A stretch of DNA of 63,941 nt, filler included, from Reticulomyxa filosa (lineage: Eukaryota > Protista > Foraminifera): assembly GCA_000512085.1 (NCBI GenBank). It is 25 parts of 25 records of this genome, joined end to end, with 100 filler letters (N's around TTAATTAATTAA, not from the genome) between each part and the next. Parts side by side here need not be neighbours in the genome. Positions count along the whole stretch, not along the records: positions 33,650 to 36,691 come from ASPP01004929.1; 24 more parts are not named here. The stretch is one strand, 5' to 3'. Within the stretch, counting starts at the first letter, position 1. Each line of letters begins with the position of its first letter. The notes beneath the pieces are model-generated. The model ran no database searches. It was not told the origin of the DNA and worked only from the letters and a program-made list of their open reading frames with translations. Positions 28,740 through 47,015 of this stretch are shown one piece after another. Both the position numbers and the translations under genes were made by a program.

Positions 28740-30470
28740 TTGTCACAATTCAAGATGATGAAGTTGGGAAATAGCATTGACTGTGTCATAGGCAGCCTGG
28801 TTCATTACACTAAAAATTCGACACATTGCAATTCTTTGTATCCTTTCCAATCGTCTCTTATGAATGTCTGCTGCACCATTCCAAAATGCCGATGCATACT
28901 CGAAACTAGGACGAATGATGGTCTTGTATAATAGACTATACGTGGATAGACTTGGTCTGGCACCTTTATATAAACATAAGTATGTCAAATATCCAAGCTT
29001 GGAATAAGTCATGTGAGAATCAATAAACAATTCAAGATACTTTACATGATCACCTGCAATGTCAATTGCATCTTTGGGAATTTTCTCTTATCTGAATGTA
29101 ATGCATTACGTCTTATCAGCTGCAAGTAACATCTTCCATTTATTCACCAAATAGATACTTCATCCAGATTTTGCTGCAATAATTCATTCATTTCATCAAT
29201 ATCATATGTACATATCAATGTCCAAAGTGCCACGTCATCAGCATTGAATGTGTTGATGGATGACTGTTGGTAAATCATTAATGTACAATAGGAACAATAT
29301 TGGTGATAAAGCAGATCCTTGATGAACTCTAGTATTAATCTCTTTGTGATGATTCTTTCCATCAATTTACCAACACTTAATAACAATGCGATCGGCTTAT
29401 GGTGACTATGATCTCCATCAGGCTTGGGAATATGCACAATATTGCCTTCTTCCATGCAATAGGTATATCCCATTCGGAAACTCCATCCAAATAGGAATAC
29501 CAATAATTTAATCATTGCATTGCCACCATTCTTTAGCATTTGATTGTGGATATTACCTGGACCTTGCGCTTTGTACGGTGACAAATGTCTCATCGCTTAA
29601 TAACTTCTTCTTTTGTAATATCACTCTGATGGATATCACTTAGACCAATGAAATTATCATCCAATTCCAATGGTTTTGATATTGCAATTTTACATTTAAT
29701 GTAATCTTCGACAATATCATAATGCTTTTCATATTGGTGTTTAATGCCTTGAATTGTGTGAATAAATTTCTTGTATTCCCTTCATACAGCGAATTAATGC
29801 TGTTTACCATATGTTGATGCTTTTCCAATTGCAATTTCTTTCGCAATTGCTTGGCAGCTCTCTTATATAGCATCAAATTTCTTGATTTTCTTTGTTTATG
29901 AAATCAGTTCTTTAATTTTTAAACTATCTTTCGTAATAGACTTAAACTGTCACTCCACCACATTTTATTGCCTTTCCAAATCATTCTGATACAAATTGTC
30001 GCTTTTCCAGCTCCAACACATTTGGTCCAAGATTTGACTGCTTTGTCCAAAGAATCAATAGATTTCTTCCAATTGTCAATATTTCTTTTCAATCTCAATC
30101 TAAATTATTCTCATTTGTTACTCATCAGATTCCAAGTCTCAATCTTTTATCGTTCAATTCGTAATGATGACCACGTGGTTTTGATATTCAGCGTTATTTA
30201 TTGGATGTCCTTTACATAATGAGCATTTTTGAAATTTTATATTCTTCTGCTATGATTTATGATTCCTTCTGCACAACACTTATCGAAAATTTTATACTTT
30301 GCTTTATTGAATCCAATGGTAATTATCTATTTTTAATATGTCCTTTGTATATCTTCTGCTTTGGCGAATGTAACGTTCAATACTGGCATAGATTGTTTCA
30401 AATAATAAATTTTCTTAAGAAATTCCTAAAGAAATTTTTTCCAAAATCTTGTATACTGATATTCCAAAAC
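28740..30470 (-). mobile_element. Decayed non-LTR retrotransposon (LINE) reverse transcriptase region
   Basis: KAQGPGNIHNQMLK, IPKP...KPIALLLSVGKLMERII, GVHQGSALSPILFLLYINDL (alternate frame), ADDVALW, VKYL and LYKTIIRPSFEYAS. Many stops and frameshifts. Confidence 0.92.
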
Positions 30471-30679: not shown

Positions 30680-31013
30680 ACGTTTGTGGGATATTCGATC
30701 TGGTCAACAAATTCAAGTGTTTAATGGACATACAAATACTGTATGGTCTGTTGAATATTCACCATTTGTAATGAAGAATAGTATTGGTAATTCAAATGTG
30801 ATATGTTCTGGATCAAATGATAATACAATTCGTTTTTGGGATATTCGATCAAATAAGAATCAATTGTATGTGATTAGAGGAGATGATGAAGATAATGGAA
30901 TATCTTGTCTTAAATTTATTGTATTGAAAAAGAAAGATAATACAAAGAATGTCACATATGATTTGAATTTGTGTTATGGTTCAAGAAATGGTCCAATTCG
31001 TATTTGGGGATAG
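30680..31013 (+). CDS. WD40-repeat protein, C-terminal end
   Basis: LWDIRSGQQIQVFNGHTNTVWSVEYSP...ICSGSNDNTIRFWDIR...GPIRIWG*. Confidence 0.92.
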
Positions 31014-33649: not shown

Positions 33650-36600
33650 CCCCCCCACCAAAAAAAAGGAGTTCAACTCTTTTAATGTCATTTGGAAAGA
33701 CAAAAGTAACGAAACACACAAAGAGCCATCGAACCCATATTCAATGACTTTGATACAAGGAATACAATATTTCAAAGATAAATTACAAATCAGAGAACAT
33801 TTCATATATGGCAGAGATGAGTTAATATGCTTTGAATGCGAGTTTGATAAATGCAAACCACCACTTGCTTCAAAGATAGATGACAAAGATGTATTATTGC
33901 ATGACACTTACAAACATCTTTCCCATTATCCAATTATTCAAGTTTATTGGGAAATAAAAGCATGTTTTATGATACCCTACAAACGCACAATCTGCGTACA
34001 AAGAAATAATTTACCAAACAGTGTTCCATTTCGAGGTGCTTTTATCCTATCCAATCAAAGACCTAACTTCAATCCATTACCATATGAATGTGATTTTCAC
34101 AAACTCAAAATTATTCAGGATACAATATATGCAAAAATAATAAGGAACAATGCGTTGCAGAAATTATTACACGAAGTGATAAAGAATGATTATCTGATTG
34201 ATTTAATTCCTAAAAAACTGCGATCGATAGGCAAAGAAGTAATCGAGCAACGAATCGATTACGATGAAAATGATCAAAATGGCGAGTTACTATTAAATGA
34301 TAAAATATTAACAATATTAAATGAATTGAGGACATTGTATCATAATGACATTCACAAACAAATGGGATATCCACTTCAATTACATCATATTTGTGCTATT
34401 TTATTGCATTGTGGTAAATCATGTAATATTCAATTCAATAATGACCAAGTCCGATGTAGACATCATATATGGCCTTATTTGGATAATTATTTGCAAGAGG
34501 CTATAAGGATATTGCATTTACATGAAAGAAGAGAAGAACGAAGATTGACTTGTATTGTGGATTGAAAGGAGTAAGATTGGGGAATATTGAAAAAGAAATC
34601 AAAGGAGGATATTTTATAAGTAACCTAAACACTTCTGATTATATTCAAGTCGCACAAATGTATAGAAGTGATCAAGGATGTATTTTACATTTTCATCCTT
34701 CCATGAGACGAGCAAGTGGAATACGGAGTTGTGATGTATCATGGATATCTTCATTCAAACATGAACGTGAAATTTTGTTTGCAAGATCTGTCACAAATTT
34801 GATTGATGATGATGATGATGAGAAAACATATAAAGAATTGTGTTCATGGAATGCAAAAGTAGAGGATGAAGATAAATATACGCAAACGATATTATTGACA
34901 TGGACAAGATATGATCAATGTTTACAACAGGCTTTGAACATTAATGCGATATTATATTGTCCTATTGATTTTAATATTATTTATGTTGCACTTGAATACT
35001 GTAATGGAGAAGATGTAAATAAAACAGTTGAATTGTTATCTGAATTTGAAGAATGGAAATTGAGAGATAATAACAAACAAAGATATGATGAAGAAAAGCA
35101 TAATTTTACAGAAAGGCGTTGCTATAGTCATAATGTCAATCTATTTTATATGTTTCTTGTCGAAAAAGGATTTCTAAACAAACAGAATGCCATGGAAAAA
35201 TTAATTTTATCTACAATTAATGATGGTTTACCTTTTGCTGAAAAAGATAACATACCTTTCTTATTTTTACCTTCTTTACCTGTTCCACTTTATCAAAGCC
35301 AATGCGTGGTACATAATTATGAAATATTGCTTTTTGGTGACTATTGTAATCATGACTGTTATTCATATCATATGATCGAGCGTAAATACAAACGCATTTG
35401 TTCTTATCCGAGTAATGTCAAATTGAATGGACATTGTGTGATAAAGCTTATACCTAATAATAATGATTCACATGATGTCACTTTGTTATCTTTTGGTGGA
35501 TACCCAAAACATACATTAGTGATGAAATACGAAAGTGTTTGGAATGATATAGAAAATGCCTACAATGAACACAAAGAAGATTATATCAATAAGTGGATGC
35601 CTTTACGCGATAATGATGATATGCCAATTTCTATTGGCAGAGATGAAGATGATTATTTAGGATTGCGTGCAGTGATTAGTGGCAGTAATAATCATTTGTT
35701 ATTTATTACATATTTTCCAAATGATATTAGTGTATTCAATTTAAATACATTTCAATATGAGAAACATAGTACTTTACCTACAAATGATAATGATAGAATG
35801 AGATATCATTGTTTTGTATTGCGAGAATCACCAAAAAAAATAAAAATCAAAATATACATGAAATGATGTTATTTCACAAAAATACTGGCTTGTCCATTGA
35901 ATATGATGAAAATTGCAACATTTTCAATTTTATAATATACGAGTTTGCACAACTATGAGATCATTTTGCTGTTATGGATTTGTTTATGTCAATGATTCTA
36001 TTTTATTTTTTGGTGGATATGACGGAATAAAAAATGCTTCAAGAGAAGTTTATCGATATTCAATTGTAGAAGATCAATGGGTAAAGTTTGAATCAATTCT
36101 ACCCATGCCATTGAATTGTTGTATTGCAACATTGAGTGGGGATAATAAATTTGTGCATGTTATTGGTGGTTATAATGAGCATGAGACTCTTTCTACACAT
36201 ATGAAAACAATATTGCAAAAATGGACAAGTGAAATAGAAATAGAAAAGGAATGGATGAAGAAAGAAGAGGAAGATAGACATAACGAAGAAATAGAAAAAG
36301 GAGAAAAAGAAAAAAAAGAAATTAAAATGATGAACGAAGAATTAAGCATGATGGGACAACAACAGCTCAATATACAGAAATTAAAAGTTAAAAATATGTG
36401 TATTATTCAATTATTTTCTTTGTCCACTATAATAACATAAATAAATGAAAAGAGAACAAAAGAAATATCAATAATAATGAATTATTGGATTCGTTCATAT
36501 TCAGTTAAAATAAAATGGATTGACGAATGTAATGCTGTCATTGCAAGATATATTCTGGTATGTTAGAATTTTTTTGTTTAGCAATAATATTGAGAAAAAA

Positions 36601-36691
36601 AAAAAAAAAAAGTTAATACATTTGTAATAGAGAAAATACTATCGACCTTTAACGATTCTTCAAAGACATCCTTCTTATGTACGCAATGTAA
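33650..36691 (+). CDS. ADP-ribosyltransferase (ART)-like domain + Kelch propeller + coiled coil + HWIR linker + start of WD40; both ends truncated, three homopolymer frameshifts
   Basis: ART motifs LYCGL, ISNLNTSD and SWISSFKHEREILF (ExE). Kelch blades from LPSLPVPLYQSQCV to VHVIGGY. Spliced tail EISIIMNYWIRSY...VIARYIL | RKYYRPLTILQRHPSYVRNV. Single-base frameshifts at about 34537, 35835 and 35922. Confidence 0.82.
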
Positions 36692-36791: not shown

Positions 36792-36863
36792 TTATTGTTA
36801 TCTGTTATTACGTTATTGTTATTGTTATTATCATTGTTATTATTATTGCTATTGCTGTTATTA

Positions 36864-36895
<32 letters not shown>

Positions 36896-37790
36896 GTCAT
36901 TGTTGTCATTACCATTGTGATTGGACTCTTTTGTGAGCTTCGCTTCTTCCTTGTTTTGGCTTTCACTGTCAACGGGCACAACTGCCTCTTGCTGTTCGTG
37001 TTTATCTTCATGTCCATGTGTGTCGTATTTGTGCTCATGTTTGTGTCGATGTGGATATTTATGTTCATGTCTATATCCGCGCCCACGATGTCCGCGGTCG
37101 TGTCTATGTTCCTGTTCATGTTCATGTTCATGTCCATGTTCATGTTCACGTTCACGTTCATGTTCATGCCCATGTCCATGTGAAGGGTAGTTTGGCATGT
37201 TTTGCTGCACTGGATGCAATCTCTCCGTTTCCTTGTCGATTCTCTCTTGAATTGCGTTGCTTAGATGGTAGTGTCCAAATCGACGTGCTATTGCCGCTGC
37301 GTCCTCGCCTTGATATTTCGCCAACAAGTCCAACTTGTCGTGTTGAAGAAACTCTTTCCATAGTTCCACGTCATTGCATGCTTGTGCCTTTTTTTTTTTT
37401 TTGTTACGTTATAATTTTTCGTAAAAAAAAAAAAAAAAAAAAAAACAAGCTACACATATATACATATATATATATTATATACTTATATATATATGTATAT
37501 AATATTAACCTAAGAGATGCAATGCATTCCTTCCAACAATCGAGTCTTGTATAGTCCTTTGGTTCAAATAATTGCTATTGGTTTTTTTCAGGTTCAAAAA
37601 ATAAGAGACTATCTTCTTGTGATAGTTCCTGCAACTCCATTGAAATGCATTCATCCCTTCCTCCATGTCCATTGTCACCACGCGGAAAGGGTCCCCTCCT
37701 TGTTCAATGTACTGCTTCACTTCGTCCAAATACTCATCTCCACCTCCTTCGTTCACTGTGTTTCTGCAGATCTTTAACAGTCTAATTTCC
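36792..37790 (-). CDS. Ankyrin-repeat protein with His/Glu-rich and poly-Asn tail (fragment)
   Basis: GMNAFQWSCRNYHKKIVSYFL, GRNALHLL and GEDAAAIARRFGHYHL; intron about 37508-37388; HEHEREREHEHGHEHE tract. Confidence 0.8.
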
Positions 37791-46060: not shown

Positions 46061-46846
46061 TTGGAGAGTCCTTTTTTTTTTAATTGTATCTTTTTTGATA
46101 AGAGATCACAGCTTCAGAAAAAAAAAAGGGTGTGTTTTTGATAAGTTATTGTATACATTGNNNNNNNNNNNNNNNNNNNNNNNNNNNNNNNNNNNNNNNN
46201 NNNNTTAATTAATTAANNNNNNNNNNNNNNNNNNNNNNNNNNNNNNNNNNNNNNNNNNNNTTGTAATCCATGTCAATTGACAAATACTTTAATTGGACAT
46301 AATGACCATTGTATTCAATATTATCGATTATTTGATTATTCTCAATTGCTTTGTTCATCAAACGACGAAACAATTCGAATATAGAATATAGAGAAAGCTG
46401 AACAAATACAAATGCTATCCAAAGATTCAGTCCATATGAAAGATATAAATCCTTTTTTTTAACTTTGAGTTTCTAATTTAGGCACGATCAACAATACGAT
46501 ATATTATTCGGATTTTTGGAAATTGTATATATATTTTGAGAAAAAAACCTCTTTTTCTGAACCAACTTGTATTATTTGAAGAAATAGCGTTAGTGATACT
46601 GATTTGTGATAAAACTTTGTGCACATTAATAGTGTATTACAGTTCTTTCAATAAAATAATTCAGTTTAAATTTTAGATATTTCTTAAAAGAATATTATTT
46701 AAATTTCTGTTTTATCATTATTTTTACAAAACAGCGTTCTATGAAGTAAAAAAAGTTATTTATATATGTATATACAAAATAGAAGAACGGAGTATTTTTT
46801 TTAAAAAAAAAGTTGAAACTTAAAAAAATCTAATCAATCAATCAAA

Positions 46847-47015
46847 TGTCAAGTTATAATATGAAGAATTTCCTTACTTTGACCGAATTACCGGAAGCAT
46901 TATCAGTTTCACAATGTATTTCATTAAATAATGAAATTCTTATCTGTAGTGGTGCTAAAATTACTAAATGTTACTCATGTCATACTCTGAAAAAAGTTGC
47001 CTGGCAAAGGAGCTA
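46847..47015 (+). pseudogene. Truncated Kelch-family first-blade relic
   Basis: MSSYNMKNFLTLTELPEALSVSQCISLNNEILICSGAKITKCYSCHTLK, homologous to the blade-1 sequences at about 8400 and 35270. Confidence 0.7.

What the first reader, a model, noticed from the sequence alone, without database searches (positions are those of the whole stretch)
33650..36691. ART toxin-like domain fused to Kelch and WD40 propellers: candidate sensor-effector protein
Seen: one reading path with an N-terminal domain, an ART-like core (LYCGL / ISNLNTSD / KHEREILF), a helical spacer, a full Kelch propeller, a coiled coil, a YWIR linker and the start of a WD40 repeat. Established: R-S-E clade ARTs use R, STS and ExE motifs. 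ExE is kept here, but R is replaced by C and STS by NTS. Inference: a cytosolic enzyme whose propellers recognise a ligand or target, as in immune or conflict receptors. All three frameshifts lie in A/T runs, so the gene may be intact.
Basis: partly seen in the sequence, partly recalled or inferred. Interest (0 to 1): 0.8.

Follow-up and report, generated by a model that had tools for sequence, protein, structure and literature searches.

The report
Arginine-less ART family of foraminifera
This is a three-times frameshifted copy of a large foraminiferan gene family whose toxin-like ADP-ribosyltransferase domain lacks the usual NAD-binding arginine yet keeps its two glutamates, and it likely works as a non-catalytic arginine-binding adaptor joined to ubiquitin-system domains and Kelch/WD40 recognition repeats.

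Summary
The reading path is real. It fills a whole 3,042-bp contig that matches a named Reticulomyxa filosa gene model (P0038). Intact paralogues carry the same ART-like + Kelch + WD40 order in one frame. Models of two intact paralogues match R-S-E ADP-ribosyltransferases (Z 14.6 to ART2.2; HopU1, XopAI, ExoS follow). The lost arginine is not decay of this copy: only 2 of 183 family domains keep it. The family also occurs in four other named foraminiferan genera, where ExE is almost invariant (122 and 121 of 123). The R. filosa subfamily has lost the second NAD-binding arginine too (kept in 1 of 52), the pattern of the pseudo-ART XopAI. Full-length paralogues start with CUE/UBA-like, PUB and ubiquitin-like domains; relatives are fused to E2, Skp1 or RING/RZ domains. 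Best reading: a pseudo-ART adaptor tied to the ubiquitin system (0.5); rival: an enzyme with a rebuilt NAD site (0.3). Whether this copy is intact is open: no reads were listed, only one break lies in a long A run, NTS is unique to it, but 947 codons hold no stop. WD40 here is only 20 codons. Immune sensing is untested.

The parts
33669..33971 (+). Ubiquitin-like (beta-grasp) domain, predicted; upstream CUE/PUB exons of paralogues lie beyond the contig start
   Evidence: 65% identical to P0005 346-445; same region of the P0009 model matches beta-grasp folds at Z 6.1-6.7, moderate
34146..34538 (+). Helical half of the ART-fold domain (family YC reads HC here; QV at the aliph-R site, 34434-34463)
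   Evidence: 66% to P0005 module; motif places; fold of paralogues
34530..34549 (+). Frame break 1, in a purine-rich tract without a long run; the public gene model P0038 splices over it and drops the arom-R strand
34538..34918 (+). Beta-core of the ART-fold domain: LYCG (C at the arom-R site), NTS, HERE (ExE)
   Evidence: Z 14.6 to ART2.2 for paralogue P0047
34922..35248 (+). Helical domain after the ART core, weakly CUE/UBA-like
   Evidence: Z 4.4-5.6 to UBA/CUE-type chains, below the level that can be trusted
35261..36221 (+). Kelch propeller, about six repeats by motif spacing, interrupted by breaks 2 and 3
   Evidence: 82, 78 and 71% identical to P0001 pieces; Kelch_1 E 1.5e-8; repeat spacing in P0001
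35833..35840 (+). Frame break 2, at an A8 run
35920..35927 (+). Frame break 3, at a T4 run
36237..36386 (+). Charged, coiled-coil-like stretch (by composition; not tested)
36387..36452 (+). Intron 1, GT-AG, 66 bp, in frame with P0001
36453..36557 (+). YWIR linker exon shared with Kelch-WD40 paralogues
   Evidence: 70% to P0001 752-788
36558..36630 (+). Intron 2, GTATGT...TAG, 73 bp
36631..36690 (+). First 20 codons of the WD40 exon; contig ends here
   Evidence: resembles the blade start of P0002 by eye; no profile hit possible at this length

Best explanation
The locus is a frameshifted, end-truncated copy of a foraminiferan ART-fold gene family that lacks the NAD-binding arginine, and its product likely acts as a non-catalytic arginine-binding adaptor, predicted to link targets caught by the Kelch and WD40 repeats to the ubiquitin/p97 machinery. 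Shown: the domain order, intact paralogues, the family-wide loss of both arginines in the R. filosa subfamily, retention of ExE. Predicted from models of paralogues: the ART fold, PUB, CUE/UBA-like and ubiquitin-like domains. Inferred: that the cleft no longer binds NAD+ and instead grips an arginine side chain through ExE, as XopAI does; that PUB docks p97 and CUE/UBA binds ubiquitin (recalled roles of these domains); that the propellers choose the target; that the many copies serve surveillance of foreign or damaged proteins, possibly as decoys for bacterial ART effectors.
For: Fold: Z 14.6, rmsd 3.1, 194 aligned to ART2.2; 14.1 HopU1; 12.8 XopAI; same result with a second paralogue. The family profile puts its vYsG on ART2.2 VYRG (E 0.0036), so the C/S/T site is the arom-R site. 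Arom-R is R in 1 of 52 named R. filosa domains and aliph-R is R in 1 of 52; ExE glutamates kept in 40 and 44 of 52. XopAI has FTG, VLE, AAS and an intact ExE, does not suit NAD+ and binds an arginine peptide (PMC6829252). PUB: Z 10.6, rmsd 2.0, 85 aligned to the PNGase PUB of a p97 complex; KYR motif in 8 of 10 regex matches. Relatives carry E2, Skp1, ubiquitin-like or RING + RZ domains. The 8 ART-fused Kelch modules sit on one branch (support 92).
Against: No binding or activity data exist. STS is kept in 46 of 63 paralogues, unlike XopAI. In the 123 more distant domains aliph-R, the first serine and ExE are nearly invariant, which suits catalysis as well as binding. Two members keep arom-R, one of them in R. 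filosa (P0086). In R. filosa the motif columns are no better conserved than many structural ones (52nd-77th percentile). This copy may be dead: three breaks, unique NTS and HC, 11 of 131 conserved columns changed against 4 of 135 in P0001 (p 0.065). Its PUB and CUE domains are not in the window and are taken from paralogues.
Confidence: 0.5

Rival explanations
1. The family is an active arginine-specific ADP-ribosyltransferase or NADase with a rebuilt NAD site, in which a small S/T/C residue replaces arom-R and other residues hold the phosphates; the propellers and ubiquitin-system domains set the target.
For: ExE is kept in 122 and 121 of 123 distant domains (98th and 96th percentile, median column 49%), first serine in 120, aliph-R in 116. 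ExE is the mark of arginine specificity (PMC3102197). A PBZ-like C-x5-C...H-x3-[YF]-x-H finger precedes the domain in 67 of 77 long distant members against 3 of 1,540 shuffles, hinting at ADP-ribose handling.
Against: Arom-R is absent in 181 of 183 domains; the R. filosa subfamily, to which this locus belongs, also lacks aliph-R (51 of 52) and the finger (48 of 49). The PBZ label is weak: Pfam zf-CCHH in 2 of 31 at E 0.47 or worse. Activity is more likely for the distant members than for this subfamily.
Confidence: 0.3
2. This locus is a dead copy, and much of the R. filosa expansion is decaying duplicate sequence with no present role; the function, if any, lies with a few members.
For: Three frame breaks, one outside any long run; longer terminal branch than P0001 in both trees (0.30 vs 0.13; 0.19 vs 0.037); a Kelch-caspase gene in another contig of this window has in-frame stops, so real decayed copies appear to exist.
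Against: 0 stops in 947 codons read piece by piece and intact splice sites; all three breaks are one-base shortfalls at or beside A/T runs, the error type of older pyrosequencing (recalled); P0055 and P0039 have similar branch lengths; 136 of 361 columns are at least 85% conserved across 62 paralogues. I put this copy itself at about 45% dead, but the family at under 15% functionless.
Confidence: 0.12
3. The family is a selfish or secreted conflict element of Crinkler type, with the ubiquitin-like domain as a header and the ART fold as payload, amplified by mobile DNA.
For: Ubiquitin-like domain directly before the ART fold; an ART-bearing Crinkler-like selfish gene of free-living eukaryotes has been reported (PMC12957317, abstract only); high copy number.
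Against: That element has a diphtheria-toxin-type domain, this one is R-S-E type; PUB, CUE, E2 and Skp1 partners point to cytosolic ubiquitin work; no Crinkler profile hit in any Pfam scan shown. Flanking DNA of paralogues could not be examined.
Confidence: 0.08

Closest known systems
XopAI (Xanthomonas type III effector, pseudo-ART)
   Same: R-S-E fold (Z 12.4-12.8), arom-R and aliph-R both lost, ExE kept
   Different: Bacterial, injected, single domain, STS changed to AAS and aliph-R reversed to E; here eukaryotic, multi-copy, STS mostly kept, aliph-R neutral, embedded among ubiquitin-system and repeat domains; 8-13% identity, so no close kinship is shown
Arginine-specific R-S-EXE ARTs (ART2.2/PF01129 group, HopU1, Tre1, ExoS)
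   Same: Best fold matches; Pfam ART in 11 of 50 R. filosa paralogues (1 above cut-off) and 23 of 31 distant members; ExE and serine kept
   Different: Arom-R replaced by C, S or T in nearly all members; no signal or anchor seen in the full-length paralogues read (by eye)
Rotifer and haptophyte ART expansions (ART with TPR or WWE)
   Same: Nearest Atlas clusters by features (0.86-0.87, leads only) and structure (TM 0.60-0.69); lineage expansion with repeat domains
   Different: Their active-site residues were not examined here; no PUB/CUE/ubiquitin-like cassette or Kelch fusion listed for them
PUB-domain p97 adaptors (PNGase, UBXD1, SPATA2)
   Same: PUB fold in full-length paralogues, Z 10.6, 8.8 and 6.5
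   Different: Their partners are glycanase, UBX or other domains, not an ART fold; PUB is outside this contig

Membership tests
R-S-E (ARTC) ADP-ribosyltransferases | ART alpha/beta fold | tested here: met
   Models of paralogues P0047 and P0009; Z 14.6 and 14.3 to ART2.2. The window copy itself was not folded; it is about 60% identical to P0047 over the core and following helices.
R-S-E (ARTC) ADP-ribosyltransferases | Arom-R motif [YFL]-R on strand 1 | tested here: not met
   YCG in the window; R in 2 of 183 family domains
R-S-E (ARTC) ADP-ribosyltransferases | STS motif | tested here: not met
   NTS in this copy; STS in 46 of 63 paralogues, so met for the family
R-S-E (ARTC) ADP-ribosyltransferases | [QE]-x-E in the ARTT loop | tested here: met
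   E-R-E at 34757-34780; 122 and 121 of 123 in distant members
R-S-E (ARTC) ADP-ribosyltransferases | Aliph-R after the active-site loop | tested here: not met
   QV here; R in 1 of 52 named R. filosa domains, 116 of 123 distant ones. The column was placed by family alignment and motif spacing, not by a structural overlay.
R-S-E (ARTC) ADP-ribosyltransferases | NAD+ binding and transfer | not testable with these tools
   needs biochemistry
XopAI-type pseudo-ART | Both NAD-binding arginines lost with ExE kept | tested here: met
XopAI-type pseudo-ART | Acidic cleft that binds an arginine peptide | not testable with these tools
XopAI-type pseudo-ART | Sequence kinship to XopAI | tested here: inconclusive
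   no XopAI chain among profile hits in PDB sequences at E 10; structural identity 8-13%
Kelch-repeat propeller | Six GG-type repeats | tested here: inconclusive
   Pfam Kelch on the last repeats only; about six by motif spacing in P0001; not folded
WD40 propeller | Several WD40 repeats in the gene | tested here: inconclusive
   20 codons before the contig end; full repeats only in paralogues P0001-P0003
Immune or conflict sensor-effector receptor | Ligand-dependent activation and diversifying selection on the sensor | not testable with these tools
   no paralogue DNA, reads or expression data were available

The most novel reading that the evidence does not exclude
Foraminifera run a whole signalling or defence system on an ART clade that replaced the supposedly essential arginine by S, T or C: active, PBZ-like-finger-bearing writers in the Bolivina/Nonionella/Ammonia-type subfamily, and a second wave in Reticulomyxa that became arginine-reading decoys wired to p97 and ubiquitin, with swappable Kelch, WD40 or TPR sensors. 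It would be a new active-site type in the R-S-E clade and a cell-autonomous ubiquitin immune system in a giant amoeboid protist.
Probability: 0.2. Interest if true: 0.85.

Novelty: new variant of a known kind. Interest (0 to 1): 0.55.

Why it matters
The arom-R arginine is one of three residues that define R-S-E ARTs. A large eukaryotic family that drops it across several foraminiferan genera while holding ExE almost invariant is either a new way to bind NAD+ or the largest known set of ART pseudoenzymes. Small intact domains exist, so the question can be settled at the bench. The repeated fusion to PUB, CUE-like, ubiquitin-like, E2, Skp1 and RING/RZ domains gives a handle on defence and protein quality control in a group whose cell biology is little known. 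The single locus in this window matters less than the family.

Tried and rejected
No genome is held for the window and no sequencing run was listed (none listed, not none exists), so breaks and expression were not tested. Pfam finds no ART in the window's own two ORFs; sequence searches of PDB with the window core, P0053 and the two R. filosa profiles found nothing relevant. A PH identity for the beta-rich region between PUB and the ubiquitin-like domain of R. filosa paralogues was not supported: low model confidence and no profile match to the PH domains of distant members (probability 0.4%); the two ubiquitin-like regions did not match each other either (1.3%). The Atlas gave no usable hit for the PBZ-like fingers. 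Repeated independent Kelch fusion was considered: the ART tree puts 9 fused members in 3 places but does not exclude one origin, and the Kelch tree favours one. No relatives were found in phage records, prokaryote genomes, viral contigs or two metagenome scans, at those sensitivities. The careful tree did not finish; the quick tree is unrooted, so whether the two R-bearing members are ancestral or reverted is open (74 of 183 domains used). Three look-ups of earlier findings returned nothing. Ten paper searches listed no description of this family; subscription journals, where the genome paper and ART surveys appeared (recalled), are mostly outside the library. No complex prediction was sent.

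Full report
Setting. The window is a string of 25 short contigs joined by N spacers; the finding is one whole contig, 33650-36691, 3,042 bp. One search lists a named Reticulomyxa filosa gene model, P0038, 97% identical over the query and on a contig of the same length.

The observation. Three long ORFs and one short piece make a single path. The intact paralogue P0001 aligns in four collinear pieces at 56-78% identity, in frames 2, 1, 3, 2, so each break is a net loss of one base. Two canonical introns follow, and the last 20 codons resemble the first WD40 blade of P0002. Break 2 is in an A8 run, break 3 at a T4 run, break 1 in a purine-rich tract without a long run. The public model splices over break 1 and loses the LYCG strand. 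The 947 codons read piece by piece hold no stop.

The family in R. filosa. Two searches gave 37 longer and 46 similar-length proteins, all named R. filosa; 63 of these 83 carry the domain. By module mapping the full form is two small helical domains, PUB, a beta-rich region, a ubiquitin-like region, the ART-like domain and a helical domain. Most stop there. Eight besides this copy go on into Kelch (P0001-4, P0039, P0055, P0070, P0092), four of those into WD40, and one into TPR (P0010). The same Kelch module is elsewhere fused to caspase, U-box, cyclophilin, TPR or WD40. So the fusion is real and not an artefact of reading through breaks. The eight ART-fused Kelch modules tested, including this one, form one branch (support 92, 28 rows).

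The fold. I folded intact paralogues, not the broken copy. P0047 (pLDDT 81) matched ExoS, XopAI, ART2.2 and C3 by Foldseek and ART2.2 Z 14.6 (rmsd 3.1, 194 aligned), HopU1 14.1, XopAI 12.8, Tre1-type 12.7 by the wide search; the top 21 rows were all of this fold. P0009 (pLDDT 75) repeated this and added PUB (Z 10.6, rmsd 2.0, 85 aligned), CUE/UBA-like domains (Z 6.3-7.0) and a beta-grasp at 319-416 (Z 6.1-6.7); the last two are in the range that can be a common arrangement only. Pfam ART hits 11 of 50 paralogues, one above its cut-off, and PUB 7 of 50, all below.

The active site. Among 63 R. filosa proteins the arom-R column holds C 51, S 3, G 2, Y 2, gap 5, R 0; STS 46; NTS only here. A profile search of 1.84 billion representatives gave 472 hits, of which 150 were listed; a further profile search added 103 rows. 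Of 30 proteins looked up, 3 are R. filosa, 16 are Bolivina, Nonionella, Ammonia or Globobulimina, 11 are unnamed, none is a named non-foraminiferan. The Ammonia entry bears a transcriptome label; that the others are transcriptome-derived is recalled. The profile of these relatives aligns its vYsG on ART2.2 VYRG, which fixes the column. Of 239 profile hits among 301 stored proteins I kept 183 distinct domains that span both halves (fragments, duplicates and P0038 dropped). R stands at arom-R in 2 of 183. In the 123 distant domains it is S 79, T 32, C 5; aliph-R is R in 116; the ExE glutamates are kept in 122 and 121, against a median column conservation of 49%. In the 52 named R. filosa domains aliph-R is R in 1 and the glutamates are kept in 40 and 44. 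Caveat: the searches were seeded with R-less members and the nearest R-bearing outgroup was not seen. The two R-bearing members lie near the base of the R. filosa side of an unrooted quick tree.

Partners of the relatives. Pfam shows PH, SAM, WD40, RING + RZ finger, and ubiquitin-like, E2, Skp1 and SAP domains. A C-x5-C...H-x3-[YF]-x-H finger precedes the domain in 67 of 77 long distant members, 1 of 49 R. filosa members and 3 of 1,540 shuffles; its likeness to PBZ is recalled and only weakly backed (2 of 31, E 0.47).

Mechanism. PMC6829252 (passages and section 2.2 read) defines arom-R, aliph-R, STS and [QE]xE and reports that XopAI, with FTG, VLE, AAS and intact ExE, is unsuited to NAD+ and binds an arginine peptide. 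PMC3102197 (passages) states that ExE governs arginine specificity. The R. filosa subfamily has lost both arginines and kept ExE, so the best reading is an arginine-gripping pseudo-ART set among ubiquitin and p97 adaptors, with repeats choosing targets (0.5). The near-invariant ExE, serine and aliph-R of the distant members keep an unusual enzyme alive as a rival (0.3). Roles of PUB, CUE/UBA and RZ domains are recalled. PMC12957317 was seen as abstract and outline only, PMC11463336 as one passage, all other papers as search listings; no supplements were opened.

This copy. For decay: three breaks, unique NTS and HC, 11 of 131 conserved columns changed against 4 of 135 in P0001 (p 0.065), longer terminal branches than P0001. 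For assembly error: no stops, intact splice sites, all breaks one-base losses at or beside A/T runs, and branch lengths like those of P0055 and P0039. About 55% intact.

Verdict. Observation largely right; ART fold supported; enzyme activity doubtful; immune sensing untested. Ten paper searches listed no account of this family, within a library that lacks most subscription journals. New variant of a known kind; interest 0.55, carried by the family rather than by this locus.

Noticed in passing
window 8412-6623 (-): Kelch + caspase-like gene with frame changes and in-frame stops in the alignments; the Kelch module is of the same family as in the finding.
   Followed up: partly
window 51629-50822 (-), 30681-31013 (+), 339-37 (-): Further WD40 genes or fragments; the first has one frame change and no stop in most alignments.
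   Followed up: no
window 46846-46992 (+): Short match to the start of the family Kelch module.
   Followed up: no
window 28743-29087 and 29144-29596 (-): Two ORFs that read by eye like fragments of a non-LTR retrotransposon reverse transcriptase; label recalled, not tested.
   Followed up: no
protein P0198: Bolivina member: ART-like domain followed by RING and an RZ-type zinc finger (E 2.6e-13), a finger known from antimicrobial ubiquitin ligases (recalled).
   Followed up: partly
proteins P0086, P0137: The only two family domains with arginine at arom-R; natural comparators for activity assays.
   Followed up: partly
protein P0026: PUB, beta-rich and ubiquitin-like regions joined to Kelch + WD40 with no ART-like domain between: the ART module can be missing, or the gene model skips it.
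   Followed up: no
protein P0176: Unnamed 2,213-aa relative with ART-like domain and many WD40 repeats on a 185-kb contig, a separate WD40 fusion far from the R. filosa branch.
   Followed up: no
window 36792-37408 (-): ORF with Asn-rich and His/Glu-repeat low-complexity tracts on the next, unlinked contig.
   Followed up: no
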